IMG/VR virus record: IMGVR_UViG_3300045988_055837
From: a virus
DNA length: 64,000 nt
Reading direction: 5' to 3' (one strand)
Shown: in pieces, positions 1-64,000 of the stretch
How the letters are laid out: every line of letters begins with the position of its first letter
Position numbering within the stretch: the first letter of the stretch is position 1
Translations under genes and position numbers: made by a program
Notes under the pieces: generated by a model
What the model saw: only the letters and a program-made list of their open reading frames with translations
What the model was told of the DNA's origin: nothing
The model's database searches: none

Positions 1-1758
1 AAAGTAAATGAAGCATATCAAGTATCTGCTTGGTATAACAAACTTCAGCAAGACATCGACAATACCACTAACTCCGCGCATAAAGAAAGATTAAAAGCTC
101 TCCAAGAAGAGATTAATCAACGCAGAGAAGGTAATAAGCTATCTCAGTATGACCTTGATATTCTCAATGCTAAATACCAGGTATTACAGGCTTAGATGGC
201 TCTTGAGGATGCTCAAAACGCTAAGAACCAAATTCAGTTAGTAAGAGACAGTCAAGGTAACTGGAACTACCAATATACTGCTAACCAAGATGATATAGCC
301 AATGCTCAGCAAAATCTTCTTGATGCAGAGAATGATTGGTATAATATCGCTAAACAACAGGTAACTGATGTAACGGGCGAGATTGTTTCCACTTGGCAAG
401 AGTGTCAGGATAAGATTAAAGACATCTACTCCGATATGACACTTACTGACGAAGAACGCTCCGCGCAGGCGCAAGAAATCTATAAGTATTATAGCGAAAA
501 GATTAAGTATCTCGAAGAAGAGAAGCAAAACGCGATCGCTGATATGACAGAAGCAGGTAATAAGAACCTGATTGATAACGCGATTATCACAGGTGATACT
601 ATTACCGACTTAACTGGCATTACCACAGAAGAATTGAAGCAATTAGTAGCCGATTCTGGTGAAAGTATTGCTGATATTTTGATGAAGAATAGCGAACAGC
701 TAAAAGAGATTGCGGGCAACAATACCGATCTTATCGACAAGTTCAATAATACTTATGCCAAGGATCTTGACGACATGACTCAAAATACAACGAATTTTGA
801 GGATGAACTCCGCAAGTTATTAGATCAAGCACAGCAAGATTTTGATAACTATAAGGATAAGGTTCAAAATGTTGCTTCTGAAACTGGTACTATTCTTGAT
901 AATTTGGCACAAGAAACTGATAAGGTTTCTGAAGCTACTGATCAATTAAGAGAGCGCGGCGATGAAGCTAAGGATACTTTGTGGAATATGATTGATGCGG
1001 CTCAAAATGCTTCTGATGGTTATTTAGAGTTAGCGCAATCCATCTGGGATACCGTTGAAGCATTGCGTGCTCTTGCTTCTCAACAAGCTCAATTTGCAGC
1101 ATCTTCTTCTTCTAAAGGTAATTCTAGTAAGGGCTATGATCCAAATACCGATTATTCTGGTGTTATTATGGATGGTATTGCTAATGGATGGTTAGAATAT
1201 GGAAGTAAAGAATATAAAGAATTAACAAGTCAACGTGAAAATAAAATTGATGATATGGGATTAACAAAAGAATATTTTGGAACTCGTGGCGATGCGGCAG
1301 ATAACCGTTATAAAGATTCTACTTCTGTTGGCCAATATGAAAGTGAAGAAGAATGGAAGAAAAAAATGCAAGCATTGGGCGTTCCTGGATTTGCTACTGG
1401 TGGATATACTGGTATATTTGATGACGCGAAACTTGCTTTCCTTCATCAAAAGGAATTGGTATTAAATCAAAGTGATACCGAGAATATTCTTGCAGCAGTC
1501 CAAGCTGTAAGAACTATCGGCCCTGATTTGTTTAAGTCTATTGAGAAATCTCTTGACGGTAATGCAATTGCGGCAATGGCTCTTATGGGTTAGAAGCTCA
1601 ATCCAGTCGCTACTACACCAATTCAAGATTCTATTGAGCAAACTGTTCATATTGATAAAGTAGAGTTCCCGAACGTGACTAGCCGCACTGAAATTGAGGA
1701 AGCATTTATTAGTCTTACTAATGATGCTGCACAGTGGGCCAGAAGAAAGACTTAATAA
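1..1758 (+). CDS. Tail tape-measure protein, 5'-truncated. Q-rich coiled-coil repeats. Reads through TAG at 193-195 and 1591-1593 and stops at tandem TAA TAA.
   Basis: Frame 1 is open from base 1. Coiled-coil, Gln/Asn/Asp-rich periodic sequence typical of tape-measure proteins. Position immediately upstream of the distal tail genes. Frame continues across TAG. Confidence 0.55.
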
Positions 1759-1792
1759 GGAGAGCTTTTTAGCTCTCCTTATTAAAGGAGTG
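1759..1792 (+). terminator. Stem-loop aggagagc-ttttta-gctctcct after the tape-measure gene
   Basis: Inverted repeat seen in sequence directly after TAA TAA, followed by a ribosome-binding site for the next gene. Confidence 0.35.
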
Positions 1793-1805
1793 AAAGGAGA
1801 TAGAC

Positions 1806-4800
1806 ATGAATAATATATCTGAACAGCTATTACAGGCTATGGATATTATTACGGAAGAAAAGGTAAGATAGTTAAAATATGATAAAACTATCCAAGCCAC
1901 CGTTTATTCTATTGTAGATGTAGATACTGGAGAATACAAAGTTAGATATAACGGGAATATCTTTTCCGCATTTAGTGAGGATACTAGTAAAAGCTATTCT
2001 ATTAAAGACGTGGTTTATGTCAAGGTGCCAGAAGGTAATTTTTCTAATAAGAAGTTGATTACTTCCTTGATGACTGCGAAGTCTTTATCTAATGCTTAGT
2101 TATCTGATTTAACCAATTCTGTATTTGAAGTATCTCCTACTTTTGATGCATTGTATGATGGAGCTTATGACGCTTCACAAAGTTACGGAGTAATTGCGGG
2201 AACGCCAGTTGGAGAGATCGGAAGTTCTATTTATATTTTTCAAAATAGTGAGGAATATGAGTAGAATGGATATCACGGTTTATTCCAATAGTATTCTAAT
2301 AATTATGAATATATTCGCTTGAAAGCGTCTTTTTTAACTTAGTTCCATAATGTCCATAATCAAGGTAATTATGGTATTGAAGTTGAGTTTTATACCAAGG
2401 ATAATAGTAGTGTAAAATATAGATTAGATCTCTAGAACTTTAATGGCAATCCTTATGGATTCTCAGTCTATTCTCCGCAGTAGATTATCCTTAAGGCGCA
2501 GAAGAACTATTTAATGGGACTTAAATCTATTAGACTCTTTGAAGAAGACTTTGTCTATGATAAAATTGTTAAGAATGGCATAGTTACAGATGAAGAGAAT
2601 AGAACTGTTGCTAATATTTTTGTAAAAGATATTTCCCTTTAGTATGTTGATATGCAGGATTTAAGTGATACGATTTATTATCTCACGATTTCTGCCCCCA
2701 AAGGTATTGCCTTTACGGATAAAGTATCTAGCTTGAATTTAGTTGGACGCTTAATTTATAATGGCGAAGATATTATGGATAGCAAGAAATGTGTTTGTCA
2801 ATGGTATGAGAGAGATTTAAGCGTGGTTGTTGGCAGCGATGAATATAGCAAGTCCGCAGGTTTCGGATGGAGGAAAATTGACGGGCAAACATCTAGCTCT
2901 CTTACTCTTGATGCAACTGATATTCTATATCAATAGAAGTATAAATTAGTAGTCGTCTATAATGATAGCATTACTCTAACTGCGGAAATCGCTGTATGGA
3001 ATCGTAATGCAAGTTATGATTATTCTATTGAGCAAGTTACTGATGGTGCTGATATTAAACTACAGATTAGAAATAATGTTGATAGTGAGTCTTTGGTGGG
3101 AGATTGGTATTTATCTTATCCAGACAATAGTTACAGCTCTGTGCCGGAAGGAGAAAAGAAGTCCGAGATTGTCGTAAGTTCTTATTTGCAATACAGTTCT
3201 GTGACTTTCTATTGCATGGTATATAATTCTGCGGGAGAGTTTATCGGAACTTTAGAACATACTATTGTGAATAGTGAGAGCGAAGATGATGTAACTATTA
3301 GTTACATCGGTGAAGATTCCTTTAGATACGATGCTAATGGCGATATTTCTATTGAAGACGCAGAGAAAGAAAGAACTCTATAGGTTAATCTAGCATGGAA
3401 GGAAGGATTTGGTACTTCTTATTTCGTGTCTTGGTTAATGAAAGATGCGAATAATAAAGAGTACGAGATCCCTACCTCTAAAGAGCTTGCTTATAGTCCG
3501 GACAACTCTATGCTTGAGAATATTTGGGTTGACAAATATAATATTTTACACTACAATATTAAATAGAAGTATAGAGTTAATTTCAGTAATAATACAGTTA
3601 TTGTAAAAATAAGAACGATTACAGAATCTATTTATCTATTTAATAAAGAGATTCTTTGTTTGAAAGATGGCGACTAGGGAACTAATGGTACTACCTATAT
3701 TACCGCGATTCGTCCATGTAATTCAGACGGCGTAAAGTTAAGTGGATTACAGCCTTTAAGATATAATAATGGATGGACTAATGATATTAGGGTTCGTTGT
3801 TATGTTTATAAAGATGGAGAATTGATTAACGGTAATAGTAAGTATTCTATTACATATAAATGGCAAGGAACAAATGTCACAGTAGAGAACAAAGAAATGG
3901 TTACTGATTCCGTTGATCGAGTTCTAGTGCGCGGTATACCTACGATTTCCGCAGATACCCCTAATGCAGAGTTAGCTTTCTATGTGAGAGTTCAAGTTAC
4001 TATTAAAGATGATAATAGCTCGGTTGATATCTACGCTTCTTATCCTCTTGATGTTATCGTTGGTTCTACCTTGGCGAGTGCTATTAATATTGATACTATT
4101 CCGTCTTATATCAAATATAATTCTTCTGGTTTAACTCCCTCTTTCTATAGTAACGATATTAACTTCTATTATAATGATGTAGCTTATAATGATAACATTA
4201 CCTCGTTAAACACCAATATCCTTACTATTAAGACAGATAATGGTAAGAAATATTTAGAACCAGCTTCTAGCTTTATCTTTGAGAATATTAAGGATAATGA
4301 TTAGAGCAATATCGGTGTATTAAATCTTGCTATTCCAAATAGTAACGATAGATTAATTCATCCAATTATTATGTATCTTGATACTTATGGTAATGAAGCT
4401 ATCAACGGTTGGGATGGAACAGCTCTTGATACTGGCGATGGAGAATATGTATTCGCTCCACAGGTTGGTGCAGGAACAAAAGATAGCCAAAATAGATTTA
4501 CAGGCGTAGTCATGGGTAAAGATAGTGGCCAAGATAAAGTGGGTTTATATGGCTATCAGGAGGGCGTTAATACTTTCGGTTTAATGGAAGACGGTACCGC
4601 GTTCTTCGGAGCTTCTAGCGGAGGCGGCCGCATTGAGATTAACGGTAAATCTGGTTCTATTAAAGGCGGCGGTGGAGGAAATAATTCCACTGGTATGACT
4701 ATCAATTTTGCCGATCTTAATCCTGGCAATAATACTACTGCAATCAAGATAGGTGGAGGAGTTTTTGAAGTTACATATAATGGTGCTTTAAAAGCAACCT

Positions 4801-5696
4801 CTGCGACTATTGAAGGTTAGATTTTTGCTCAGTCTGGTAAGATTGGTTGTACTAGCAGAAATAGTAATGATGGTTGGACTATCGAGAAGAATAAATTATA
4901 TAGTGGAAGTGGAGCAACAAGAGTAGAACTAAATAGTGATAAGGATGAAGAATTTGCTATTTGGGCAGGTGCTACAAGTTCGACTTCTGCACGAGATAGC
5001 TATTTTGCAGTTTCTAAAAAAGGTTCTCTCTACGCTAAGCAAGGTAATATTGGCGGATGGATTCTTAAGAGTAAATCTCTTTCTAGCAATAACAATAAAA
5101 TTGGTATGGCTAGCTCTGGTTCTTATGTATTTTGGTCTGGTGCAAATACCGGTAATCCAGGTGATACTCCAGATTTTAGCAATAGTGGTACCTACTTCTA
5201 TGTTACTAATAGCGGAAAACTCTCTTGTAAGAACGCAGAAGTGCGTGGTAACATTACCGCAGATAGCCTTGAATGTGATAATGGTGAGATCGGTGGATGG
5301 ACTATTAGTAGTAATTCTCTACGAGGCGGAAGCACTTATCTATATTCTAGTGGTCGAATTGTTTGTGATGACCTTAACTGTGATGGTGGCAATATCGGTG
5401 GATGGACAATTGGAGAAGATTCAATTTCTGCTAGTGGCACTATTTTACAAAGTGATGGTAACATTTATACTAGGTTAGGTAGAATTGGTCTGGTCGAAGG
5501 AGAAGATAGCCAAGGTACTACTTATAACTTTGGAATGTAGGCAACTGGCGGTAATGGAAGTGTTATCATTCAAGCGACATATGGCAATGGTAACGTAGCT
5601 CTACGTGCCGCGAATTATATTATCTTAAATGGTAATAGACTTACTTGCACAGTGCCAGCAGCTAATCAGTCTGGTATTTATGCAAGATTTGCTTAA
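1806..5696 (+). CDS. Giant tail or baseplate protein of about 1296 aa with many in-frame TAG codons. Repeated IGGWTI motifs and Gly-rich beta regions near the C-terminus. Candidate distal-tail or host-recognition protein.
   Basis: Ribosome-binding site ggagatagac then ATG at 1806. One frame stays open across track ORFs 2652, 3093, 3822, 4371 and 5106. About 3.9 kb without TAA/TGA in AT-rich DNA. Terminates at TAA 5694-5696. Confidence 0.6.
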
Positions 5697-5709
5697 GGAG
5701 GGATAAATA

Positions 5710-6543
5710 ATGCCGAGTGCTTCTCTTACTTTTGTCAGTGCAAGTCGTTCTAGTGTGCGAATTGAGTATGATGGAAGTGGGTGGTATATCCCTGCCAATG
5801 GACCTGAACACAGTTCTGGATGGTCTACTATAACAAGCACAGATACTAGACAAGTTCAGTAGAAAACCGTCACTCAGGTAGTTTATGATGTTGCTGGTTG
5901 TACTACTACTTGGCATTGGAGTTTTACTGGTGGTAATGGTGGTTCTAGTTCTGTTAAGACTGGAACCATTACCATTGGCGGAATGACAGCAGGATCGAGA
6001 GGTAGTGTCACAGGAAGGCTCTCAGCGACAAGAAGTGCAAAACAAAAAAAAGAAGTTTATACACGCACTCGAACTCGTACTAAAACGACAGTAAAAGATG
6101 ATAAAGGAAATACTACTACTAAGTATGGAGAGTGGAGCGATTGGAGTGAATCGGGTCCAAGAACAACATATAGCTCTGCTAGCAGTAAAAATTTAGGCTC
6201 TGCATCTGATACTTTGGTATTTTATACTAAGCCAGCTGAGTTTTCATGGGGTAGTGGTGTAGACACTGATAAAACTATTTAGGTATCTGGTGGACTTTCA
6301 GCTAGTAAGTGGAATACCTTGGTTGCTAGAGTAGAATAGCGGAAGAACTGGGAAAATTAGTCTGGCAGAGCTAATTATAGTGATGCGGAGGTTAGCTCTG
6401 GTGAATTAGTAACAGCCGCTAAATATAATATTTTAGCTAGAGCACTTGGCGTAAGCCAAGTGACAGCACACACCGATAGAACTACTGGCACACTTATTAC
6501 CGCTGATGTATTTATTGCATTATAGACTGCGGTTAATGCATGA
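5710..6543 (+). CDS. Hypothetical structural protein of about 277 aa. Ser/Thr-rich. Reads through 6 TAG codons.
   Basis: Ribosome-binding site ggagggataaat then ATG at 5710. Frame joins track ORF 5983..6282. Stops at TGA 6541-6543. Confidence 0.5.
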
Positions 6544-6559
6544 GTTAAAGGAGATAACC

Positions 6560-6922
6560 ATGTTAAATAAAGATATTGTCACGATGTATCGTGGGTTAAC
6601 AAGCTTGGCTTCCGATCTGGAAACCAAGCTTCCCGCGAAGGTATCATTTGCTATTGTTAGGAATATTAAGCTTTTAACTCCTATTGTTGAAGATATTGAT
6701 TTTGCTCGTCAATCAGTTGCAGCAACTTATGGAGTAGAAGTCGATGGTGGATACAGTATTCCTGAATAGCAAATAGATACAGTTAATTAGGAGTTAACTG
6801 CGATTGCGGAAACAGAAGTTGATGTTCCTATTGTTAAAGTTAAAATGTCAGATATTGAGAACTTGAATATCTCTGTTGGTATCGCAGAAGCTCTTGAGTT
6901 TATGATAGAGGAAGAGGTTTAA
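6560..6922 (+). CDS. Hypothetical protein of about 120 aa with 2 in-frame TAG
   Basis: Ribosome-binding site aaaggagataacc then ATG at 6560. Stops at TAA. Confidence 0.45.
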
Positions 6923-6945
6923 GTCTCTTCCTCTTTTCTTTTTGC
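6896..6945 (+). terminator. Rho-independent terminator: stem gaggaagag / ctcttcctc followed by a T-run
   Basis: Inverted repeat plus tcttttctttttgc seen in sequence. Confidence 0.45.
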
Positions 6946-7019
6946 TTGGACGGATTTAATTATCTTAACCAAAGCAATTTTTATAATATATAGAGTTAGA
7001 GAAAAAGGAGGCGCGGAAT

Positions 7020-9761: not shown

Positions 9762-9766
9762 TATTC

Positions 9767-11671: not shown

Positions 11672-11684
11672 GGAGGAGAGGGCG

Positions 11685-12263: not shown

Positions 12264-12275
12264 GGAGGTATAGAC

Positions 12276-46692: not shown

Positions 46693-46747
46693 TTAATCCA
46701 TTTCCTTACCTTTTATACATATATAATAACATAAAATTAAAGAAAAA

Positions 46748-51097: not shown

Positions 51098-51163
51098 TTA
51101 TTGCAAACTCCTTATCCCGCGAGCAGTGACATTAAACCGGCACAAGCAAAAATGCCAAGAGTA

Positions 51164-51344: not shown

Positions 51345-51402
51345 ATAATAATTAAATTCTTTCTTCTTATATAAATATATTATAATAATTAAAAAGAAAA
51401 GT

Positions 51403-51434
51403 CAACTAAGAGAAAGAATGGGTATACCCATTCT
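51403..51434. terminator. Perfect 32-bp palindrome agagaaagaatgggtatacccattctttctct just after the topoisomerase A-subunit stop
   Basis: Seen in sequence. Confidence 0.5.
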
Positions 51435-51439
51435 TTCTC

Positions 51440-53803: not shown

Positions 53804-53817
53804 AAAATCACTCCTTA

Positions 53818-55716: not shown

Positions 55717-55718
55717 AT

Positions 55719-56222
55719 TTAACCTCCATACATATCTAATACTTGCTGTTCTGTAATCTTGCCTGTTGCTAACTGATCAGCAAGCTCATTAAACAGCGTT
55801 CCATTATGCCCTTTTACATATCTTAAATCAACCTGTAATCCTTCTTTAGTGGTTAATCTATCATATTCGAGAATTAAGTCCTTATTCTCTAAGGGTTTAT
55901 TACCGGCACGAACCCAGCCATTTGCCTTCCAATTCTTAATCCAATTAGTGAAGCTATTTACGCAATACATAGAATCACTATAAACAATAGGAATGAAGAA
56001 GTCACCGTCTTTCGCGCCATAATGGGTTAATGCCCACAAGATTGCGGACATTTCCATTCTATTGTTTGTGGTGCCATCTGCGCGTTCAGAATACGCCGCG
56101 ACAACTTTATAGGTTGACGGGTCTTGGTGTGGTTCAGCTTCACAAACTACAACTCCAAAACCACCTTTTGCATCTTTCGCGCCATTTTTTAAGGTTGAGC
56201 CGTCTGTATATATCACTATCAT
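55719..56222 (-). CDS. rnhA: Ribonuclease HI
   Basis: IYTDGS..., NNRMEMSAILWAL, YVKGHNGTLFNELADQLA. Confidence 0.8.
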   Translation of the reverse strand: MIVIYTDGSTLKNGAKDAKGGFGVVVCEAEPHQDPSTYKVVAAYSERADGTTNNRMEMSAILWALTHYGAKDGDFFIPIVYSDSMYCVNSFTNWIKNWKANGWVRAGNKPLENKDLILEYDRLTTKEGLQVDLRYVKGHNGTLFNELADQLATGKITEQQVLDMYGG

Positions 56223-56363: not shown

Positions 56364-56603
56364 TTAAATGGTTGCTTCATCCTCGACTACTTGCTGCTAT
56401 TGTTTCTCACACATAGCTAAATCATAAGTAATCCCACCCTTGCGGTGATCGGATTTACTCATGTTTAAGTAAAAAGAGCAAACAATACCATGCGCAGACC
56501 ATGGCAATCCTACTAATGCACTAATCCATGGGAGAGTACCCAGATAACCAAGATGTACGCAATAGAAAGCAAGAGCAATACCGGAGATAGTTACAATCCA
56601 CAA
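56364..56603 (-). CDS. Small two-transmembrane-helix membrane protein of about 79 aa immediately downstream of the endolysin. Holin candidate.
   Basis: Two hydrophobic helices. Reads through TAG at 56397 to TAA 56364. Confidence 0.4.
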
Positions 56604-56686
56604 GAGAGAGCGAATGTCGCAAATAAGCTATTTAGAAAATTCTTTTTTCTAGCTATGTTTTCCTTTTCCTCTTGTTTGACGACCCA

Positions 56687-58093
56687 TTATTGACCACTCT
56701 TTTCAGCATAACGCTTTAGAACAGCCGCAAATTCGCCACGAGTCATAAAGCGTTTTGGCATCAACTGACCTTTTTCATTGCCATTGATTAAGCCATTAGC
56801 CTGTGCCCAAGTCATTGCGTCTTGCTCCCAGGTGACTGGTTGCGCAGCGAGCTGACTAAGATATACATTCATCATTTCATTGAATTTTTCTTGAGTCATG
56901 TCTTCATCATCCTCCTCGATAACTTTAGACTGCATTAAAGCAGCAACATCTTTGCGAACGGTTGTCATATCTTTGCCATATTTCTTGAACCAATGGTATA
57001 CATCAGCATGGTTACTACCGAGACCCAACTGATAGCTATCTTGATGGCAGAGAATGGTTGGAACTGTTACGCCATTTACATTTACAGAACCATTTGGATT
57101 GATATTATATGTCTTACATAAGTAGGCTGTCAATTCGCAAGCCTCTTTGTAGACTTTAGCGAAGTAATCGGGGTCACTTAGATTGTCTTCGCAGATTTCA
57201 AACTGAATCCATCCAGTATTACAGCTACCTTTAGAGCCTGAGCCGCAACCCCAAGGTCTATAATTCCAAGGTAGTGTTTGTACTGCGGCTACGCTTCCGT
57301 CAGCAAGAGCACCAATCCAAGCGTTTACACCAGCCTGCTATGAGCTATGATTCCAATCGGTTCTACTGGTATTTTTACCAATTTTAGTAATCAGAGATTG
57401 ATAGTTCTTGTCGTTCTCAGATGGTTGAACATAACGCTTAATAGTTTTATTATTGGCGCCTGTACTGTGCCAGAGGACGCCTTTAATATCCATCTTGCGG
57501 GTTTGCTTATAACAAGTGCTATTAGTCATCATGCAAACCAATGGGTGATTAGCGTTTGAATATTTCATCTTAGCTATTTCCTCCTTTTGCGTTGAATAAA
57601 TATTGAAGTAACGTTGGCTATATAACGCACGCTATTTTAGTGTGCTAGAGCTCTGATCTGCCGGTCTTTCAAACTGAGTGACCACCAAATTAGATGCTTC
57701 TTCAACAGATGAGGTAGTCTTCAAGATTTTTAATAGCTAGGAGTAACTTGTAGTTAGTTCCTGATATAAAAAATCTAGTTGGGTGTTTAAGTCACCAATA
57801 GACTTTCCTCGACTTTTACACAGCTAAAACAGACCTTGCTTGCGGCTCCAATATGTCCATTGAGCTAAACCATATCCCGCAGAATCATGCGTGAAATTGG
57901 TATAGGAGCCATTATCAACAGCCGCAGTATACGAGGCATCGTTCATTCCTAACTTACTCTCATATGAGTTCTATAAGTTAGTTGGAATAAGTCCGCTTTC
58001 CGCGAATAGATTCCCCATTAGACCTGCGGCACCGCAGTTACTTAATCCTTTTGATTTAAGATAATCCCAAATAACTTGAGCATTATCCGCCAA
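56687..58093 (-). CDS. Modular endolysin of about 468 aa: N-terminal lysozyme-like (phage lysozyme2) domain, central Amidase_2 (N-acetylmuramoyl-L-alanine amidase), C-terminal SLH cell-wall-binding domain. At least 7 in-frame TAG.
   Basis: AAGLMGNLFAESG in the N-terminal domain. IKGVLWHSTGANN amidase motif. GLINGNEKGQLMPKRFMTRGEFAAVLKRY is an SLH motif. Track ORFs 57338..57568 and 56687..57133 are in one frame. An internal ribosome-binding site plus ATG at 57568 could also give an amidase-SLH-only product. Confidence 0.6.
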
Positions 58094-58123
58094 TGACCTC
58101 ACCTCCAATTAGGGTATAAAAAT

Positions 58124-58154: not shown

Positions 58155-59429
58155 TTAAATTTTATCAGCGATAGAAGCAATCTTACTACGATAGATATTC
58201 TTAAGAGTTACCTCTCCATAAATATCCTTACCTCTAAATACTTTTGATACTCGCCGCATACCGTTATTTGCACCAGAGAAGTGAATATCATCAACCTGAG
58301 TTTTTTCATCACCATCAATAATGCAAATACAATCTTCGCCAACACGCTGTAGAGCGAGTTTCATTAGTGTGCGGTCAAGGTTCTAAGCTTCAGAAATATA
58401 GATACCTGCGTTCATACCAGAAGTATCATAACCACGAATATCAGAGAATGGTAGTAAAACTAATTTACCTTCTGCGATCAGTCTCTCAACTTCCTCTCGA
58501 CCGCCAAACTTACTACTTAGCAAGTTACCAATTTGAGAGTCAAGTAGCTTTTCGTCTTTTGTTCCCGGATAATATCCGAGACGAGCAGAATTAGCAGTAG
58601 CAACAGTATTGCAGAAGATAATAATTTTATCTAGTTCATGAGCTTCCATTTTTGCCATTAAGTAAGCCAGAGAAACGAAAGTCTTTCCGCTACCAGCTGG
58701 ACCTTTAACAAGAGTTAGCTTGTTATTACGCAAACTATCAAATAGCATCTTCTGATAAATATCTCCAGAATATGGAGAAATCTTACCAAACCACTTAGAG
58801 TTAATAGTCTTAGAAGAAAGGTATCTGAACTCTTCGCCTGTCCAAACCCGCAAATCAACAATCTCTCCATTGCTATTTTTCAGGATAAGATACTGTCCTG
58901 GTAATAGGTTAAAGGAATTATCGTTCGGGTTCTGATAAAACTCTGCTAGAGCTTCGTCGCTATAAGTAACTTCAATATAACCAGTATAATCATCTACTTC
59001 TTCTGGAACGCTCTCAATCATTCCATTACCAAAGAAGCAGTTAGCGATATGCTTTAGACTTAAATCGTTAGTTACAAAGACAATATCTTTTTCTTTGTCG
59101 CACGCAATGGCATCAGACAAGATGCGAGTATCATCAGTAACATCGAAACCAGCTTCTTTAATTACGAACTCATTGTCTACTTTGTGCGGGATTACTTCAT
59201 ACTTATCTGGATATTCTTCAAATAAATGAAGCAATAGACGAGCCGAATACTTGATGTCAGCATCCTTGTTTGAAGCTGTCTTAATTCTCTCTAATTCTTT
59301 TAATGTAATTGAGGAAACTAAGAAGGGCTTCTTGTCCTGCTCAAATAGACTTTCTCCGGCCAACAAAAGGGAGCAAGTATCGTAGAAGTATCTATCTGTT
59401 GGAAACCGTACATCATAGTTCATGTTCAT
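58155..59429 (-). CDS. PIN-domain plus PhoH-like ATPase (YlaK family), about 424 aa
   Basis: N-terminal PIN (YFYDTCSLL, VFVTNDLSLK). Walker A GPAGSGKT. Track ORFs 58383..59528 and 58155..58364 are joined through TAG at 58383-58385. Confidence 0.65.
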
Positions 59430-59646
59430 CTTCCTCTTCGTATGTAGTGGCAAATCCGATTGCCCTAGATTGAGTTTCTCCTTCACTAAGTTTATTAATC
59501 GCAACATTGTGACGAACAATCCTTTCATTTATATTAGCTTTAATAAGTTCTGTAATAGCACTTATAATTTCACTAATACTATTGAGTAAGGTGGCACCTA
59601 CTGTGATAAGGAGAACTCCAATTAAAATATTTACCAATAAAACCAC
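59413..59646 (-). CDS. Small membrane protein of 77 aa with an N-terminal transmembrane helix and an acidic C-terminus
   Basis: Hydrophobic N-terminus. Overlaps the YlaK start. Confidence 0.35.
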   Translation of the reverse strand: MVLLVNILIGVLLITVGATLLNSISEIISAITELIKANINERIVRHNVAINKLSEGETQSRAIGFATTYEEEDEHEL

Positions 59647-59680
59647 CTCTTATGTTATTATAATAAATAAGAGAAGTTCG

Positions 59681-60145
59681 TTAATTATTATCGGCCTTCT
59701 GTCTAAAGCGTTTGACAGATTCAATAGCTTTATCTTGACCAAGAATATATTTATGTAACATATTTTTCTCTTTATCAAGAGCCTCTTTAAGTGCGTCGGC
59801 TCTATATTTGCAGCGCATCATATTTCGATTAAAAGCGCCTAATGGGTCCACTTCCGCAGGAGTTTTAACGCCAAGACCTAATACCTCTTGATAAAACTGA
59901 TTGCGGACATTAAACTTATCTCTCTCTTGCTTATAAAAATATTCAAGGGCTTCAATTCTTGCTTTTGATAGAGCAATATTATATCCAACTTTTTTAGAGT
60001 AGAAACCTTCATCACCCTTACTTAGTACAGCAGCGCCATGAAAAGTATGCCCTTGATAGCAAATCTTTACATTGGTGATACCTTCTTCTTCCCAATAATC
60101 TTTCATAATCACAGGAGCTTTATATATAGCTTTAACCAAATTCAT
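59681..60145 (-). CDS. Hypothetical protein of 154 aa
   Basis: Intact ORF with ribosome-binding site aaggaga. Confidence 0.4.
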   Translation of the reverse strand: MNLVKAIYKAPVIMKDYWEEEGITNVKICYQGHTFHGAAVLSKGDEGFYSKKVGYNIALSKARIEALEYFYKQERDKFNVRNQFYQEVLGLGVKTPAEVDPLGAFNRNMMRCKYRADALKEALDKEKNMLHKYILGQDKAIESVKRFRQKADNN

Positions 60146-60169
60146 ATAGTTTTGTTCTCCTTATTTAAT

Positions 60170-60210
60170 TCTTTATCTATATGATAGCAAAATTTTATAG
60201 ATAAATCAAA
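60170..60210 (-). promoter_or_regulatory. Sigma70-like promoter TTGATT-N17-TATCAT upstream of the 59681-60145 operon
   Basis: Read on the minus strand between the terminator at about 60290 and ribosome-binding site AGGAGA. Confidence 0.35.
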
Positions 60211-60285
60211 TTTGCCCTATTTCTCCGAAAAATTTGCTGGGCCTATGTGCGCGGAAACTCGGAGATCGACGATGCTAGCGACAAA

Positions 60286-60320
60286 AAAAAAGAACCGCGC
60301 TCTTACGAACGCGGTTCTTC
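60286..60320. terminator. Rho-independent terminator agaaccgcg-loop-cgcggttct preceded by A9
   Basis: Seen in sequence just downstream of the SPFH gene stop. Confidence 0.55.
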
Positions 60321-60324
60321 AAAA

Positions 60325-61809
60325 TTACTCCTTATTGGAGGAGTCTGCCAACTTGCCACCGAGGAAACCGGTGAGCAAGGTTTTCACATCAATACCGAGG
60401 GATTCGCTCAGTCCCTCAGAAACCTGAGCGACATTCTTGATAATGTTGCCAGACAGCTTGCTGGTGTCATCACCGAACATCACAATCTTGTCAACATTGG
60501 TGTACGCCTGACCGGTAGCCTGAGCAATAGCAGGCAACTGCTGGAAGTACAGCTTGAGGGCTTCCATCTGCATATCCATCTTGGCGGCTTCGCCGTACTG
60601 CTTCATAGCTTCTGCTTTCTTCATAAGACCTTCGGCTTCTGCCTCAGCCTTAGCCTGAATCGCGGCAGCCTCAGCTTCACCACGAGCCTTAGTAGCCGCA
60701 GCTTCTGCCTCACCCTGAACACGAACAGCTTCAGCCGTAGCACGCTGGGCTTCAGCTCTTTGCTCTGCCTCAAAGCGCTCGGCTTCCGCAGTCTTCTGAC
60801 GCTCATACAGGTCTGCCTCAGACTGCTTCTGAGTAGCGTACAGCTTAGCATCAGCTTCCTGCTGAGCAGCATACTTCTTAGCTTCCGCGGTCTTCTTGAC
60901 CTCAGCCTCCAGAGCACGCTCCTTAATGGCAACTTCGCGCTCCTTCAAGTCGATTTCCTTTTCCTGACGAGCAATGTCAGCATCTGCCGCAGCCACATCA
61001 CGCAGTTTACGCTGGTTCTCAGACTCAATCTCCATAGCAGCATTAGCCTGAGCCTGCTTGGTATCAGCTTCCTGCTTCAACTGAGCCTTCTGAATAGCCA
61101 GACTATTGTTGCGCTTGGCAATCTCTTCCTCAGCCTTTACGCGGGCATCATTAGAAGCCTTAGCGTTCTCAGCCTCGGCAACCGCAATCTCACGCTGGGC
61201 ATTAGATTTAGCGATTGCGGCGTCCTTACGGATCTGCTCGACGTTATCAATACCAAGGTTGGTGATAACATCATTGTCGTCAGAGAAGTTCTGGACATTG
61301 AAGGAAACCAGTTCCAGACCGAAACGAGCCAGATCAGGCACAGCATTTTCCTGCACCTTTTCGGAGAATGCCTTGCGATCACCGACCATCTCGGTCAGCT
61401 TCATCTGACCCACAATCTCACGAATATTACCTTCCAGAAGGTCGTTAATCTTCTGTGCGATCTGATCGCGAGAGACATTTAGGAAGTTCTGAGCAGCAAG
61501 AGCAATCATCTCTTCGCTCTGACCCACGCGTACAGAAACGGTAGAATCGACTCGTACATTGATGTATTCAGCAGTCGGCACGGCAGAGCCAGTCTTAACA
61601 TCAATCTGAATGGCTCCTAGTGCCAGCTTATCCAGTCGCTCCAAGAAGGGAATCTTGATGCCAGCCTTACCGACCAAAATACGAGGTTTCTTGTGCAGAC
61701 CAGAAATGATATAGGCAACATCAGGTGGAGCCTTTACATAACCAGAAGCCAAGAGGGCGATAAGAGCAATAGCAATAATCACCGCAGGAACAAAAGGAAG
61801 AATAGTCAT
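60325..61809 (-). CDS. SPFH/band-7 (flotillin / YqiK-like) membrane protein with a long Ala/Glu-rich coiled coil, 494 aa
   Basis: N-terminal transmembrane helix then PPDVAYIISGL...RILVGKAGIKIPFLERL SPFH core. Extended AEAEAK coiled coil. Confidence 0.7.
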   Translation of the reverse strand: MTILPFVPAVIIAIALIALLASGYVKAPPDVAYIISGLHKKPRILVGKAGIKIPFLERLDKLALGAIQIDVKTGSAVPTAEYINVRVDSTVSVRVGQSEEMIALAAQNFLNVSRDQIAQKINDLLEGNIREIVGQMKLTEMVGDRKAFSEKVQENAVPDLARFGLELVSFNVQNFSDDNDVITNLGIDNVEQIRKDAAIAKSNAQREIAVAEAENAKASNDARVKAEEEIAKRNNSLAIQKAQLKQEADTKQAQANAAMEIESENQRKLRDVAAADADIARQEKEIDLKEREVAIKERALEAEVKKTAEAKKYAAQQEADAKLYATQKQSEADLYERQKTAEAERFEAEQRAEAQRATAEAVRVQGEAEAAATKARGEAEAAAIQAKAEAEAEGLMKKAEAMKQYGEAAKMDMQMEALKLYFQQLPAIAQATGQAYTNVDKIVMFGDDTSKLSGNIIKNVAQVSEGLSESLGIDVKTLLTGFLGGKLADSSNKE

Positions 61810-61866
61810 CTGTTACTCCTTAATATATTAAATTGTTTTATTTATAAATCAATGCGTTAGCATTGT

Positions 61867-62553
61867 TTATCCGTAGTAGCCTCCATCGGGAGGATCTCGC
61901 TTATAAGATTTACAAAACCCAGGGATACAGCCACAATTAGGATAGGTATATATACATTTATTACATCTTATGATAGGGCTTGATTCTTCAATCTACAGCT
62001 GCGCCTTACACTCCTCAACCTTCTCATTCATTTCCTTGATAACATCATCAAGGAGAACAGGATAACACTCATGAGAGTCAACTCCTACATGGTACATAAA
62101 TGGAATTTCATTGTAGAAGTTGGAGGTCTGATGGGTATGACCGAAAAGATTGCAAGTTACTTGCTTGAGGGACTCTTTCTCAATGTTGCCGGTCAAAGTA
62201 GGATAATGAGAAGCATAGAAATGATACTTGCGGTAAGTGAAAGCATAAGCGTCAAACACAGGAATACCAGTTCTAAGATAGGCTTCTCTACGATTAGGGG
62301 TATCATGGTTACCACCAACCACGAGTTTAAGACCATTCATGCGATTGAGTAAGGCAAGCCCCTCCTCAAGCTTATCAGCTCCGCCAAGCATGAGATCGCC
62401 GCAGATAATAAGTGTATCTTCAGGGGCCACACACTCATTATTCTTCTTTACGATAGTTTCATTCATCTCTTCAACGCTTTCAAAACCACGGGCTTTCCAG
62501 ATGAACTCCTTATCGTGATTGAAGTGATAGTCGCTAGAAATCCAAATATTCAT
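61867..62553 (-). CDS. Calcineurin-like metallophosphoesterase with a C-terminal Cys-rich zinc-ribbon extension, about 228 aa
   Basis: DYHFNH, GDLMLGG, GNHD, GHTH. Reads through TAG at 61993 into ...IIRCNKCIYTYPNCGCIPGFC and stops at TAA at about 61867. Confidence 0.65.
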
Positions 62554-62567
62554 TTTATCACCCTCTC

Positions 62568-63071
62568 TTAATGATGCACACGCACATCGATATTAGAAAA
62601 ACCCCAATTAGTCTTAGGGAACTCTTTTTCAGTAGGAATAGAAAATCCCTTCTTCATCTTCTTAATTGCGGAATCGGGGATTCTGGCAACGCCAGTCCGC
62701 TGAGCATTACGCTCAAGAGCGGTTTCGACAGGGACATCAATGACTTCAAAGGTCAGTTTGGTATGCGGATCTGCGATCAACCGACCAAGGAGCTTTGCGC
62801 GAGAAGCGGGGCTAATATGAGTCGCATCCGCAAACACAACATCAATACCAAGTTCCATAGCTTCGTTAATCTGTCGGACAAATTCGTCGAATACTTCAAC
62901 TTCTTTGTCAAAGTAGTTATCACGATCGGTCAAGATGGACTGCCGCACGAAATCTCTGGAAACTACACAAGTGGTACGATGTTCTTCTTCGATTCGAGCT
63001 ACCTCTTGCTTAACCCAAGTAGATTTACCACTACCGGGGATGCCAACCATTACTTTCAGTTCAGTCGTCAT
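62568..63071 (-). CDS. Polynucleotide 5'-kinase (T4 Pnk kinase-domain-like P-loop kinase)
   Basis: VMVGIPGSGKST. Ribosome-binding site GGAGG then ATG at 63071. Confidence 0.6.
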   Translation of the reverse strand: MTTELKVMVGIPGSGKSTWVKQEVARIEEEHRTTCVVSRDFVRQSILTDRDNYFDKEVEVFDEFVRQINEAMELGIDVVFADATHISPASRAKLLGRLIADPHTKLTFEVIDVPVETALERNAQRTGVARIPDSAIKKMKKGFSIPTEKEFPKTNWGFSNIDVRVHH

Positions 63072-63336
63072 TTTTTTCGCCTCCGTCCATTTTTGCTCCA
63101 CAATGTGGGCAATACTCCCAGAAGTTGCTTTTGATTACTTTCTTACACATCGGACAAATTCGTTCAGTATGATAATTCATACCAACTTCAATATCCCACT
63201 TACTGTGAGTTACTGGAATAACATCTGCAGCTGGTATTGCCATCAGTGCAGCAGCACTCACGTACACATCGTCCCAACGACCATGTATGAAATTGGCTTG
63301 CGATATAGCCACAGCACGGTCAATATATTCTGGCAT
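63061..63336 (-). CDS. Hypothetical zinc-ribbon protein of 91 aa
   Basis: CPMC...CPHC. Confidence 0.35.
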   Translation of the reverse strand: MPEYIDRAVAISQANFIHGRWDDVYVSAAALMAIPAADVIPVTHSKWDIEVGMNYHTERICPMCKKVIKSNFWEYCPHCGAKMDGGEKNDD

Positions 63337-63598
63337 TAGCTAACCTCCGTTCAACTTCAGCCATCACCCAAGCAATATCTTCATCAGATACCTCGGTTTC
63401 AAACTGAATAGAGCAGTTCTCACCTTTTACTCTTGCTTCAATGAGCAAATTAACAGCATCTTCAAGGTCCTGTTGATGCTCTATGAAAGGAGAAAAAGCT
63501 CGATTCTCTTGAGCACAAGGACATGGGACAGGAGACCAAAGATCGGATTTGCATCTTGGGTTATCGTGATAACCTAACATACCATGCGGATGAGTCAT
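63320..63598 (-). CDS. Hypothetical protein of 92 aa
   Basis: Intact ORF. Confidence 0.3.
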   Translation of the reverse strand: MTHPHGMLGYHDNPRCKSDLWSPVPCPCAQENRAFSPFIEHQQDLEDAVNLLIEARVKGENCSIQFETEVSDEDIAWVMAEVERRLANARIY

Positions 63599-63600
63599 TA

Positions 63601-63756
63601 CTTTTCCTCCTGTTCAATAAACTGCTGAATGATAGCCATTGATTTTTCAATGGTATTTAGCTCGTCATCAATGAATACGCCACTCCAATCTAGACTATCA
63701 ATGATACCATCGAGAGTGTCCAATGCTTTAAGCGCGGTAGGTTTATCAATTCTTGC
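63601..63756 (-). CDS. Small hypothetical protein of about 52 aa
   Basis: ATG with an overlapping stop/start to the downstream gene. Confidence 0.25.
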
Positions 63757-63958
63757 CATCATTATCACTCTCCTCGTCGCTCATAACTCGTAGAATTGCT
63801 ACAATGTCTTCTGGATTTAGATAACATGGTTTATTGTGTTTAACTCCTTTAAAGGTATAACTATAAAGGTTTCCGCTAAGATTAGAAATCGTTGTTTCAA
63901 GATCATCTGCAACAACATTAAAAGAAACACCATTACGAAGAATTACTCGAAAAGTCAT
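63746..63958 (-). CDS. Hypothetical protein of 70 aa
   Basis: Intact ORF. Confidence 0.3.
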   Translation of the reverse strand: MTFRVILRNGVSFNVVADDLETTISNLSGNLYSYTFKGVKHNKPCYLNPEDIVAILRVMSDEESDNDGKN

Positions 63959-64000
63959 TATCCATAACTTCCTTTCTTTAACTTTCTATATATATTATAA

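What the first reader, a model, noticed from the sequence alone, without database searches (positions are those of the whole stretch)
1..64000. Bimodal use of the recoded codon: replication core is TAG-free while late, lysis and DGR genes are TAG-dense
dnaE (1298 aa), nrdD, dnaB, primase, Dda-like helicase, topoisomerase II A and B, ligase, RNase H, dut, folA and gmk contain no in-frame TAG. The structural genes at 1-14195 carry roughly one TAG per 20-40 codons. The endolysin (at least 7), RuvC-like resolvase (6), DGR RT (about 10), Avd (5), GIY-YIG protein (about 12), RecJ (3) and lysozyme lipoprotein are also TAG-containing despite sitting inside the early strand. This looks like a translational timing switch: genes needed before suppression is established are kept TAG-free. 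Within the + strand there is also a gradient. Genes 14215-14997, 21809-22408 and 23136-26247 are TAG-free.
Basis: partly seen in the sequence, partly recalled or inferred. Interest (0 to 1): 0.7.

Follow-up and report, generated by a model that had tools for sequence, protein, structure and literature searches.

The report
Amber-recoded phage spares its early genes
This is part of a roughly 145-kb gut phage that reads the TAG stop codon as glutamine, uses TAG freely in tail, lysis, nuclease and retroelement genes, and keeps it out of DNA-replication genes; the pattern is real and under selection, but it is already published for other recoded phages.

Summary
Reading TAG as sense raises long-ORF coverage from 76% to 97%. 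I curated 66 genes (20,133 codons) carrying 131 in-frame TAGs. Nine replication genes have 0 TAG in 4,864 codons. Six nucleotide-metabolism genes have 2 in 1,733. Structural, lysis, DGR, recombinase and nuclease genes have 112 in 8,921.

Composition does not explain this. Position-specific base content predicts about 85 TAGs in the early set (2 observed) and 107 in the late set (112 observed).

TAG means glutamine. It aligns with conserved Gln in Sin resolvase and canonical ThyA, and it swaps with CAG/CAA among strains.

The partition persists in relatives down to 54% DnaE identity. Close relatives carry a Gln-like tRNA(CUA) at the head of a tRNA and tmRNA array, upstream of about 30 kb of almost TAG-free genes.

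- Structural TAG density is about 1 per 96 codons, not 1 per 20-40.
- nrdD and thyA each have one TAG.
- The endolysin has 5.
- 23136-26247 is not wholly TAG-free.
- A holin is TAG-free.

The timing-switch reading matches the published model of Borges et al., but timing itself is untested here. This is a new member of a known kind.

The parts
1..14195 (+). TAG-using late structural block. Eight genes: tape-measure C-terminus, 1296-aa tail protein, baseplate and tail proteins, fibre-like protein. 56 in-frame TAGs in 4,655 codons (2, 15, 5, 2, 14, 10, 2, 6).
   Evidence: Gene table. PHROG tail and tape-measure hits. Orthologues in 19-21 relatives keep similar TAG counts.
14215..14997 (+). Tail-fibre-like gene, TAG-free (260 codons). 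Not individually significant: about 2.7 TAGs would be expected at the late-gene rate.
16146..17411 (-). DGR reverse transcriptase. 9 in-frame TAGs, including three consecutive TAGs at codons 20-22.
   Evidence: Pfam RVT_1 E = 8e-16. TAG positions.
17662..17764 (-). DGR template repeat. It lies inside a spurious 140-codon ORF that was not counted as a gene.
   Evidence: Direct repeat D1, 103 nt at 85% identity. Every TR/VR mismatch falls at a TR adenine.
17797..18291 (-). ORF in the Avd position between VR and TR, with 5 in-frame TAGs. Its identity as Avd is not verified.
   Evidence: No Pfam, PHROG or PDB match. Position only.
18373..20088 (-). DGR target gene (Big_3 plus DUF6273) with the variable repeat at 18390-18492. 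1 TAG.
22472..23086 (+). Small serine recombinase of the resolvase/invertase type. 7 TAGs in 204 codons.
   Evidence: Pfam Resolvase E = 1.5e-28. 4 of the 6 aligned TAGs fall on Gln of Sin recombinase 2r0q.
23136..23519 (+). Holin, TAG-free in this lineage.
   Evidence: phrog_13712 holin E = 4.5e-34. 0 TAG in 15 close relatives, but 12 TAGs across 7 relatives at 70-93% identity.
23701..24310 (+). Two small genes (120 aa and 77 aa) with 3 TAGs each.
   Evidence: Conserved and TAG-dense (23-52 per 1000) in about 40 relatives. Called as genes in public records.
24338..26247 (+). TAG-free accessory block of three genes (613 codons). About 6 TAGs would be expected at the late-gene rate. Up to 48% GC. 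The first two genes are absent in some strains.
   Evidence: L003 and L005 lack the 286-aa and 140-aa genes.
27101..27580 (-). RuvC-like resolvase, the densest TAG user: 7 TAGs in 159 codons. Its start overlaps the stop of the TAG-free dUTPase gene.
   Evidence: Pfam RuvC. 40-53 TAG per 1000 in all identity tiers of relatives. Coordinates.
27580..38204 (-). TAG-poor core: dUTPase, three small genes (one with 1 TAG), FNT-like membrane protein, NrdG, NrdD (1 TAG at codon 116), gmk, DnaE (1298 aa, 0 TAG), Dda/RecD-like helicase, and a small gene.
   Evidence: Pfam hits. Counts. DnaE is TAG-free in 26/26 close relatives and 32/37 distant ones.
38293..40843 (-). Lysozyme lipoprotein (1 TAG) and RecJ-like exonuclease (2-4 TAGs, depending on the start).
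   Evidence: RecJ orthologues carry 5-16 TAG per 1000, and none is TAG-free in 54 relatives.
40855..48426 (-). TAG-poor replication and nucleotide block: primase (phrog_47), DnaB, YorH-like, AAA_24, YorF-like, wHTH (1 TAG), folA, thyA (1 TAG at the conserved QRS Gln), and a small gene.
48426..49343 (-). GIY-YIG nuclease-domain protein with an N-terminal hydrophobic helix. 12 TAGs in 305 codons. A terminator-like hairpin lies just upstream.
   Evidence: Pfam GIY-YIG on residues 213-293. Counts. Hairpin at 49386-49353.
49949..56222 (-). TAG-free ATP-dependent ligase, type II topoisomerase A and B subunits, and RNase H (1,968 codons, 0 TAG).
56364..58108 (-). Lysis cassette inside the 'early' strand: endolysin (lysozyme, amidase and SLH domains; 5 TAGs) and a 107-aa membrane protein (3 TAGs). 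Terminator-like hairpins bracket it.
   Evidence: Hairpins at 58149-58124 and 56359-56324.
58155..63958 (-). Mostly TAG-free genes: PhoH/PIN (1 TAG, at the Q of the ISEAQN segment), SPFH/flotillin (50.6% GC, 0 TAG), metallophosphoesterase (1 TAG), AAA_33 kinase, and small genes.

Best explanation
The window is part of a roughly 145-kb tailed phage of a Clostridia-type host. The phage uses genetic code 15, in which TAG encodes Gln. Selection keeps TAG out of genes that must be translated by the unmodified host apparatus: the replication core, most nucleotide metabolism, and the roughly 30 kb of genes upstream.

In virion genes TAG behaves as an ordinary Gln codon. It is enriched in genes whose products are needed late or are dangerous early: RuvC, RecJ, a GIY-YIG nuclease, a serine recombinase, the DGR RT and the Avd-position ORF, the endolysin and small membrane proteins.

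The phage lineage supplies a Gln-like amber suppressor tRNA(CUA) at the head of a large tRNA and tmRNA array, co-oriented with the TAG-free genes. Once that tRNA accumulates, TAG-containing messages can be read through.

Shown: the recoding, TAG = Gln, the partition, its independence from composition, its conservation, and the suppressor tRNA in close relatives. Inferred: that the partition produces a temporal or safety gate on translation, and the order of events.
For: Recoding:
- TAG-sense ORF coverage is 97% against 76% under table 11.

TAG = Gln:
- 4 of 6 TAGs aligned to Sin resolvase fall on Gln.
- The thyA TAG sits at the Q of the QRS motif, which is Q in canonical ThyA (6auj).
- The PhoH TAG sits in the ISEAQN segment. 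I recognise this as PhoH's conserved DEAQN-type motif from memory; only the sequence itself was checked.
- Among 94-99% identical strains, 159 of 188 changes at window TAG sites are to CAG or CAA.

Partition:
- 0/4,864 and 2/1,733 codons in replication and nucleotide genes against 112/8,921 in late, lysis, DGR, nuclease and mobile genes. Fisher p = 2e-24, Mann-Whitney p = 1e-5.

Not composition:
- Position-specific base content predicts 84.5 TAGs in early genes (2 observed, O/E 0.02) and 106.7 in late genes (112 observed, O/E 1.05).
- Out-of-frame TAG differs only 1.7-fold between the two sets.
- Within the 36-42% GC band the rates are 0.31 and 11.0 per 1000.
- A Poisson model with GC3 and the out-of-frame TAG rate still needs the class term (LRT 47.5, p = 6e-12).
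- TAG makes up 27% of Gln codons in late genes and 0.9% in early genes.

Selection over time:
- DnaE is TAG-free in 26/26 close relatives and 32/37 relatives below 70% identity.
- RuvC stays at about 40-53 per 1000 and RecJ at 5-16 per 1000 in every tier.
- TAG and CAR codons turn over freely in tail genes at only about 5% divergence.

Machinery:
- tRNA(CUA) with a U1.U72 mismatch and G73, first in an array of 27-30 tRNAs plus a tmRNA, about 29 kb beyond the window's right end in phages with 99% identical DnaE. Reading U1 and G73 as Gln identity elements is my own knowledge, not a test.
- A syntenic tRNA(CUA) is present in 79%-identity relatives.
- The intervening genes are almost TAG-free: 0 TAG in 2,759 codons, then 5 in 5,014 and 1 in 2,974.

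Translational gating within operons:
- RuvC (7 TAGs) overlaps the stop of TAG-free dUTPase.
- RecJ follows TAG-free primase by 11 nt.

Literature:
- The same model is published and has proteomic support.
Against: - No expression or proteomic data exist for this phage, so the early and late classes are assigned by function and strand only.
- The suppressor tRNA is not in the window, and I could not fetch the exact source genome beyond 10 kb from the window's right end.
- A confident holin, a tail-fibre-like gene and DUF4376 are TAG-free.
- nrdD, thyA and PhoH each carry one TAG at a position needed for function. 'Needed early means TAG-free' is therefore not absolute.
- TAGs show no bias toward gene 5' ends (KS p = 0.47). 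A pure gating design might favour such a bias.
- The lysis cassette and the GIY-YIG gene have terminator-like hairpins upstream, so transcription may already time them.
Confidence: 0.75

Rival explanations
1. Composition artefact: per-gene TAG frequency simply tracks local GC or codon composition.
For: There are weak negative correlations between TAG density and GC (rho -0.30) and GC3 (rho -0.30), and a positive one with out-of-frame TAG (rho 0.42). Some TAG-free genes are GC-rich: SPFH 50.6%, the gene at 24338-25198 48%, the YorF-like gene 47%.
Against: Out-of-frame TAG differs only 1.7-fold between classes, while in-frame TAG differs about 40-fold. The composition-expected count for early genes is 84.5 against 2 observed. 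In the same 36-42% GC band the rates are 0.31 and 11.0 per 1000. The class term survives GC3 and out-of-frame covariates (p = 6e-12).
Confidence: 0.03
2. Mosaic ancestry: TAG-free genes are recent imports from standard-code phages or hosts that have not had time to acquire TAG. The replication module is SPbeta-like. No selection on timing is involved.
For: The replication genes are SPbeta-like: YorF, YorH, and YorL-type DnaE at 40% identity to SPbeta and Enterococcus phages. GC-rich TAG-free genes look foreign in their CAG versus CAA preference. The genes at 24338-25680 vary between strains. SPFH homologues are in Clostridia genomes.
Against: DnaE, the helicases, the primase and DnaB stay nearly TAG-free in recoded relatives down to 54% identity. 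TAG and CAR codons interconvert in tail genes at only about 5% divergence. DnaE has 30 CAG codons, each one transition from TAG, and none is TAG. TAG-dense RuvC and RecJ sit inside the same module and stay TAG-dense.
Confidence: 0.12
3. Safety gate rather than clock: TAG is enriched specifically in proteins that are harmful if made from leaky or premature expression (nucleases, recombinase, RT, lysis and membrane proteins). Virion genes merely tolerate TAG, and early genes avoid it because suppression is never fully efficient.
For: The highest densities are in RuvC 44, GIY-YIG 39, a 77-aa protein 39, serine recombinase 34, the Avd-position ORF 30, a 107-aa membrane protein 28 and the RT 21 per 1000. 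Structural genes run at about 10 per 1000, which equals the composition expectation (O/E 1.05). The RT has three consecutive TAGs at codons 20-22. Borges et al. found a recoded homing endonuclease and lysis genes to be the most biased families.
Against: This overlaps the main explanation and sequence alone cannot separate the two. The holin is TAG-free in this lineage. The sample of 'dangerous' genes is small, and several of them have no demonstrated function.
Confidence: 0.1

Closest known systems
Alternatively coded (TAG to Gln, code 15) gut phages with standard-code early genes, as described by Borges et al. (bioRxiv 10.1101/2021.08.26.457843, published in Nature Microbiology in 2022 to my knowledge): crAss-like, Lak, Agate and the other 'gemstone' clades
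   Same: - In-frame TAG read as Gln.
- Structural and lysis genes recoded, replication machinery in standard code.
- A phage suppressor tRNA(CUA).
- A nuclease gene embedded among early genes that is among the most heavily recoded. Agate has a recoded intron endonuclease.
- Recoded modules scattered across the genome, as in Agate, Jade, Sapphire and Lak.
- A predicted Firmicutes host, as for several clades.
   Different: - Clade membership was not tested, because TerL is outside the window.
- Here the small serine recombinase is TAG-dense, whereas Garnet and Topaz integrases avoid TAG.
- A confident holin is TAG-free.
- A complete DGR cassette is among the recoded genes. My full-text search found only one paper holding both 'diversity-generating retroelement' and 'stop codon recoding', a study of zeta crAss-like phages that I did not read.
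- The replication module is SPbeta-like (YorL-type DnaE).
phAss-1 / proposed Phassvirus (Babkin et al. 2023, PMC10607447)
   Same: Human-gut phage of similar size (136 kb) with TAG to Gln recoding in 28% of ORFs, many tRNAs and tRNA-Sup-CTA genes.
   Different: There is no nucleotide match to any GenBank phage for window 30000-54000. The best GenBank DnaE matches are Enterococcus and SPbeta phages at 40% identity. This is a different lineage.
Bacillus phage SPbeta and Enterococcus phages with YorL-type DNA polymerase
   Same: The replication module contains YorF, YorH, YorL-type DnaE, DnaB and AAA_24.
   Different: Identity is only 39-40%. To my knowledge those phages use the standard code; this was not tested here.

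Membership tests
Code-15 (TAG to Gln) recoded phage | Genes are fragmented under table 11 and restored when TAG is read as sense | tested here: met
   Long-ORF coverage is 75.7% under table 11, 97.4% with TAG as sense and 80.6% with TGA as sense. Public gene calls on identical contigs include the TAG-containing ORFs at full length.
Code-15 (TAG to Gln) recoded phage | In-frame TAG corresponds to glutamine in homologues | tested here: met
   4 of 6 TAGs aligned to Sin recombinase fall on Gln. The thyA TAG is at the QRS Gln of canonical ThyA. 85% of substitutions at TAG sites among strains are to CAG or CAA.
Code-15 (TAG to Gln) recoded phage | Phage-encoded amber suppressor tRNA(CUA) | tested here: met
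   None in the window. A 91-nt tRNA(CUA) with U1.U72 and G73 is present in contigs with 99% identical DnaE (L154, L155, L157) and in relatives at about 79% DnaE identity (contigs of L123 and L126, whose DnaE loci are L048 and L049). The exact source genome could not be read that far.
Recoding as regulator of late and lytic genes (Borges model) | Recoded codon enriched in structural and lysis genes and avoided in replication genes | tested here: met
   conserved in relatives. Exceptions: the holin and one tail-fibre-like gene are TAG-free.
Recoding as regulator of late and lytic genes (Borges model) | TAG-free genes are expressed before suppression is established and TAG-containing genes after it | not testable with these tools
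   No transcriptome, Ribo-seq or proteome is available for this phage. Only gene order and orientation relative to the tRNA array are known.
Recoding as regulator of late and lytic genes (Borges model) | The host uses the standard code | not testable with these tools
   The host is only inferred to be Clostridia, from the SLH and dockerin domains and from SPFH homologues in Eubacterium, Oscillospiraceae and Lachnospiraceae genomes.
Named recoded clade (Agate or another gemstone clade) | Placement in the TerL phylogeny with at least 95% bootstrap support | not tested
   TerL is not in the window or in the fetched flanks, and no reference sequences are held.
Phassvirus (phAss-1) | Nucleotide similarity and synteny with OQ749652 | tested here: not met
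   No megablast match to any GenBank phage. None of the 15 DnaE tblastn hits listed (of 1,420 matching records, all below 60% identity) is phAss-1.
Diversity-generating retroelement | RT gene plus a TR/VR pair differing only at TR adenines, with VR at the 3' end of a target gene | tested here: met
   RVT_1 hit. TR at 17662-17764 and VR at 18390-18492. All mismatches fall at TR adenines.
Diversity-generating retroelement | Avd accessory protein | tested here: inconclusive
   An ORF sits in the canonical position, but it has no Pfam, PHROG or PDB sequence match.

The most novel reading that the evidence does not exclude
In this lineage amber gating would act inside polycistronic early messages, independently of transcription, to switch on a specific set of DNA-manipulating enzymes only after the phage tRNA(CUA) accumulates. 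Examples: RuvC overlapping TAG-free dUTPase, RecJ directly after the primase, and the DGR RT behind three consecutive TAGs. DGR mutagenesis, junction resolution and nuclease activity would then be confined to late infection. The co-encoded tmRNA would rescue ribosomes that read through host TAG stops. A DGR under genetic-code control would be a new regulatory link.
Probability: 0.25. Interest if true: 0.55.

Novelty: new member of a known kind. Interest (0 to 1): 0.3.

Why it matters
This is an independent, statistically clean example of the published idea that recoded phages keep their first-expressed genes in the host's code and place later or dangerous genes behind a stop codon. It comes from a lineage that appears undescribed: SPbeta-like replication genes, a likely Clostridia host, and a genome of about 145 kb.

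The comparative data add three things that a single-genome map lacks. The partition survives divergence down to 54% DnaE identity. TAG and CAG/CAA interconvert rapidly in late genes. In virion genes TAG sits at its composition-expected frequency, while it is essentially forbidden in the replication core.

Practically, annotating such contigs under table 11 breaks the tail, lysis, DGR and nuclease genes but leaves the replication genes intact, which can mislead classification.

Tried and rejected
- tRNA and Rfam scans of the window found nothing. tRNA scans of 60+ loci around the tail and DnaE regions of relatives also found nothing. The suppressor tRNA turned up only after two walking steps to the right through IMG/VR contigs.
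- Megablast against GenBank phages gave no match, so no annotated close relative could be used.
That ORF also had no Pfam, PHROG or PDB sequence match.
- I tested whether TAGs cluster near gene 5' ends, as a gate might favour. They do not (KS p = 0.47 against uniform, p = 0.22 against CAA/CAG positions).
- I looked for inverted repeats that would make the minus-strand DGR segment (about 15.0-20.3 kb) an invertible element under the neighbouring serine recombinase. I found no convincing long pair, only 18-31-nt pairs at 71-89% complementarity.
- I rejected as genes the ORF at 17375-17797 (it overlaps the DGR template repeat at 17662-17764) and the long upstream extensions of the ORFs at 15051-15689, 55719-56309, 18373-20292 and 20370-21797. 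Their upstream TAGs lie before the likely start, as judged from Pfam match positions and the first ATG.
- The sigma-70 promoter scan was not above shuffled expectation (52 found against 45 expected) and was not used.

Full report
WHAT THE WINDOW IS

The window is 38.9% GC and has a GC-skew switch near 15-26 kb. ORFs of at least 100 aa cover 75.7% of it under table 11, 97.4% when TAG is read as sense, and 80.6% when TGA is read as sense. TAG is therefore a sense codon here.

I called genes with TAA and TGA as the only stops, using a codon-model greedy caller. I refined the starts using the TAG and ATG positions and the residues at which Pfam or PHROG matches begin.

The + strand, 1-14997, carries tail genes: the C-terminus of a tape measure, a 1296-aa tail protein, baseplate and tail proteins, and fibre-like proteins.

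A minus-strand insert at 15-20.3 kb holds a complete DGR:
- target gene at 18373-20088, with Big_3 and DUF6273 domains
- an ORF in the Avd position at 17797-18291
- template repeat at 17662-17764
- RT at 16146-17411
All TR/VR mismatches fall at TR adenines.

From 20.4 to 26.6 kb on the + strand there are more fibre-like genes, a small serine recombinase, a holin (phrog_13712, E = 4.5e-34) and a strain-variable accessory block.

From 26.6 kb to 64 kb everything is on the minus strand: RuvC, dUTPase, NrdG, NrdD, gmk, a YorL-type DnaE, a Dda/RecD-like helicase, a lysozyme lipoprotein, RecJ, primase, DnaB, AAA_24, folA, thyA, a GIY-YIG protein, an ATP ligase, topoisomerase II A and B, RNase H, an endolysin with a small membrane protein, PhoH/PIN, SPFH/flotillin and others.

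No GenBank phage matches at the DNA level. DnaE is 40% identical to the polymerases of Enterococcus and SPbeta phages. Public records annotate YorF- and YorH-like neighbours.

CHECKING THE OBSERVATION

The curated set has 66 genes, 20,133 codons and 131 in-frame TAGs.

The counts are grossly over-dispersed:
- Chi-square is 272.7 on 65 df, and none of 100,000 multinomial simulations comes close.
- 35 TAG-free genes hold 9,139 codons, against 2,642 expected.

By class:
- nine replication genes: 0 in 4,864 codons
- six nucleotide-metabolism genes: 2 in 1,733
- structural genes: 58 in 5,554
- lysis genes: 9 in 961
- DGR genes: 15 in 1,156
- serine recombinase plus GIY-YIG: 19 in 509
- RuvC plus RecJ: 11 in 741
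At the mean rate, a TAG-free DnaE alone has P = 2e-4.

- Structural density is about 1 per 96 codons, not 1 per 20-40.
- nrdD has one TAG, at codon 116, between the ATP-cone (Pfam residues 3-91) and the catalytic domain (residues 117-740).
- thyA has one TAG.
- The endolysin has 5 rather than at least 7, and RuvC has 7 rather than 6.
- RNase H is TAG-free only once the true ATG is used.
- 23136-26247 contains two small conserved genes with 3 TAGs each.
- The + strand shows a mosaic, not a gradient.
- The holin is TAG-free.

IS IT COMPOSITION?

TAG density correlates weakly with GC and GC3 (rho about -0.30) and with out-of-frame TAG (rho 0.42). However:
- Out-of-frame TAG differs only 1.7-fold between the early and late sets, while in-frame TAG differs about 40-fold.
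- From each gene's position-specific T1, A2 and G3 frequencies, the early set should hold 84.5 TAGs (2 observed) and the late set 106.7 (112 observed).
- Restricted to genes of 36-42% GC, the rates are 0.31 and 11.0 per 1000.
- A Poisson model with GC3 and the out-of-frame TAG rate still requires the class term (LRT 47.5, p = 6e-12).
- TAG supplies 27% of Gln codons in late genes and 0.9% in early genes.

TAG is therefore at its neutral, composition-expected level in late genes and is essentially forbidden in the replication core. The refutation criterion is not met.

WHAT TAG ENCODES

- With TAG masked as X, the serine recombinase aligns to Sin (2r0q) with Gln opposite 4 of 6 TAGs.
- The thyA TAG lies at the Q of the QRS motif. 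It is Q in a canonical ThyA (6auj) and A in B. subtilis ThyA.
- The PhoH TAG lies in the ISEAQN segment. I recognise this as PhoH's conserved DEAQN-type motif from memory only.
- Across strains 80-99% identical in DNA (mostly 94-99%), window TAG sites are TAG in 1,111 cells, CAG in 84, CAA in 75 and anything else in 29. The reverse comparison is similar. These cells are not phylogenetically independent, but the direction is unambiguous: TAG = Gln.

CONSERVATION

The phage is common. Its DnaE is indexed in 55 blocks of the assembly collection, with contigs up to 144.5 kb. IMG/VR holds dozens of relatives with DnaE from 54% to 100% identity, and nearly all of them are better covered with TAG as sense.

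Orthologue-by-orthologue counts:
- DnaE is TAG-free in 26/26 close relatives, 4/12 intermediate ones (at most 2 TAGs each) and 32/37 distant ones.
- The helicase, primase, DnaB and dUTPase behave similarly.
- RuvC stays at 40-53 TAG per 1000 and RecJ at 5-16 per 1000 in all tiers.
- The two small genes at 23.7-24.3 kb stay at 23-52 per 1000.
- Tail genes stay at about 10-25 per 1000.

TAG and CAR codons interconvert readily at 5% divergence, and DnaE has 30 CAG codons. A TAG-free DnaE over this depth therefore implies purifying selection, not lack of time.

MACHINERY

The window has no tRNA. I walked rightward, which is upstream for the minus-strand genes, through IMG/VR contigs. This found an array of 27-30 tRNAs and a tmRNA in the same orientation.

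In three contigs whose DnaE is 99% identical to the window's, a 91-nt tRNA(CUA) lies at the upstream end of the array, within the first five tRNAs detected in each locus. It has a U1.U72 mismatch and a G73 discriminator. I take these as Gln-type identity features from general knowledge. tRNA-Gln(UUG) and tRNA-Gln(CUG) are also encoded. In relatives at about 79% DnaE identity (contigs of L123 and L126), a 76-nt tRNA(CUA) sits in a second, syntenic cluster.

By coordinate arithmetic on contig 3300045988_037140, the suppressor lies about 29 kb beyond window position 64000. The genes between it and the window are almost TAG-free: 0 in 2,759 codons in the flank of a contig identical to the window over their 10-kb overlap, then 5 in 5,014 and 1 in 2,974 in a 98.8% relative.

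HOW IT MOST LIKELY WORKS

Shown:
- recoding and TAG = Gln
- a selection-maintained partition by function
- a lineage-encoded Gln-like suppressor tRNA placed with the TAG-free genes

Inferred: on infection the host translates the TAG-free genes (replication, most nucleotide metabolism, the upstream 30 kb) with the standard code. As tRNA(CUA) accumulates, TAG-containing messages become readable.

Two layouts occur:
- Some TAG-dense genes are embedded in apparently polycistronic runs of TAG-free genes. The RuvC start overlaps the dUTPase stop, and RecJ follows the primase by 11 nt. There the gate would act on translation alone.
- The endolysin cassette and the GIY-YIG gene are bracketed or preceded by strong terminator-like hairpins. 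Transcription may also time them.

The densest users are nucleases, a recombinase, the RT (three consecutive TAGs at codons 20-22) and small membrane proteins. This suits a safety gate against premature or leaky expression as well as it suits a clock, and sequence alone cannot separate the two. TAGs show no 5' bias within genes.

EXCEPTIONS AND THE PARTIAL RIVAL

Some TAG-free genes look like recent cargo:
- SPFH is 50.6% GC, with 32 CAG against 1 CAA.
- The genes at 24338-25680 reach 48% GC and are missing from some strains.
- The YorF-like gene is 47% GC.
- SPFH homologues are all in Clostridia genomes.
For these genes mosaic ancestry is a sufficient explanation. It does not explain the replication core.

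nrdD, thyA and PhoH each need one read-through. Either they are 'middle' functions or low-level read-through is enough; this is unresolved.

COMPARISON WITH WHAT IS KNOWN

Borges et al. report that:
- lysis genes and an intron endonuclease are the most biased families
- suppressor tRNAs accompany recoding
- Garnet and Topaz integrases avoid the recoded codon

Peters et al. found no recoded peptides among early-infection proteins.

This phage meets every sequence-testable feature of that class. It is not phAss-1 or Phassvirus. Its gemstone-clade membership is untested because TerL is outside the data held.

Differences worth noting:
- The small serine recombinase is TAG-dense, the opposite of the Garnet and Topaz integrases.
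- The holin is TAG-free in this lineage.
- A whole DGR cassette is recoded. My literature search found only one paper containing both 'diversity-generating retroelement' and 'stop codon recoding', a study of zeta crAss-like phages that I did not read.

VERDICT

This is a new member of a known kind, of modest interest.

Noticed in passing
window 16146-20088 (TR 17662-17764, VR 18390-18492): A complete DGR sits on the minus strand between + strand tail-fibre genes. Every TR/VR mismatch is at a TR adenine. The target protein has Big_3 and DUF6273 domains. The RT has three consecutive TAG codons at positions 20-22.
   Followed up: partly
loci L147, L152, L154, L155, L157 (about 20-30 kb beyond window position 64000): An array of 27-30 tRNA genes plus a phage tmRNA (tag peptide DNNYFDSHMAA or DNDYFDSHMAA), headed by a 91-nt tRNA(CUA). 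The tmRNA might rescue ribosomes that read through host TAG stops; this is speculation.
   Followed up: partly
L109 3185-3533 and equivalents in relatives: There are odd tRNAs. An 87-nt gene with a long variable arm has anticodon GCA ('Cys'). A CAA-anticodon tRNA is 87 nt in close relatives but 77 nt in 79% relatives. Next to them is an apparent 3' half of a Tyr-like tRNA (GUA anticodon loop, T-arm and CCA) with no recognisable 5' half.
   Followed up: no
window 30039-32279: The single nrdD TAG lies exactly at the junction of the ATP-cone and the catalytic domain. No close relative (0/25) is TAG-free in nrdD. Under the standard code the gene would yield a free ATP-cone fragment.
   Followed up: partly
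window 22404-22441 and 23561-23598: Direct repeats containing a TTGGCAAA motif flank the serine recombinase plus holin pair. They could be recombination sites or repeated regulatory sites.
   Followed up: no
window 24338-25680; loci L003, L005: Two TAG-free genes (phrog_16490 and phrog_20016, up to 48% GC) are replaced by 63-aa and 119-aa ORFs in some otherwise 98% identical strains. This looks like an accessory cassette.
   Followed up: partly
window 60325-61809; locus L164: The SPFH/flotillin gene is 50.6% GC with 32 CAG against 1 CAA, so it is compositionally foreign. Its best genome match (74%) is on a 147.8-kb contig binned as Eubacterium sp., which is about phage-genome size and may itself be a related phage.
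   Followed up: no
window 56324-56359, 58124-58149, 49353-49386, 51407-51442, 60289-60320: Strong terminator-like hairpins (11-16 bp stems) lie on the minus strand. Two bracket the endolysin cassette and one sits just upstream of the GIY-YIG gene.
   Followed up: no
window 48426-49343: The GIY-YIG domain is C-terminal (residues 213-293), behind an N-terminal hydrophobic helix and a long Q/E/K-rich, probably coiled-coil, region. This is not the usual homing-endonuclease layout.
   Followed up: no
window 29015-29566 and 15051-15500: Two membrane proteins unusual for a phage: a formate/nitrite-transporter-like protein next to nrdG and nrdD, and a CmpB-like ('ABC-transporter type IV') protein next to the DGR. 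Both are TAG-free.
   Followed up: no
loci L007-L009 positions 1-10000 (right flank of the window): TAG-free auxiliary genes: NAMPT, a phosphoribosyltransferase-like protein (weak Pribosyltran/Pribosyl_synth hits), NAD synthase, isochorismatase-family protein, Thg1-like tRNA-His guanylyltransferase, RNA ligase and metallophosphatases. This looks like an NAD-salvage and tRNA-repair set.
   Followed up: no
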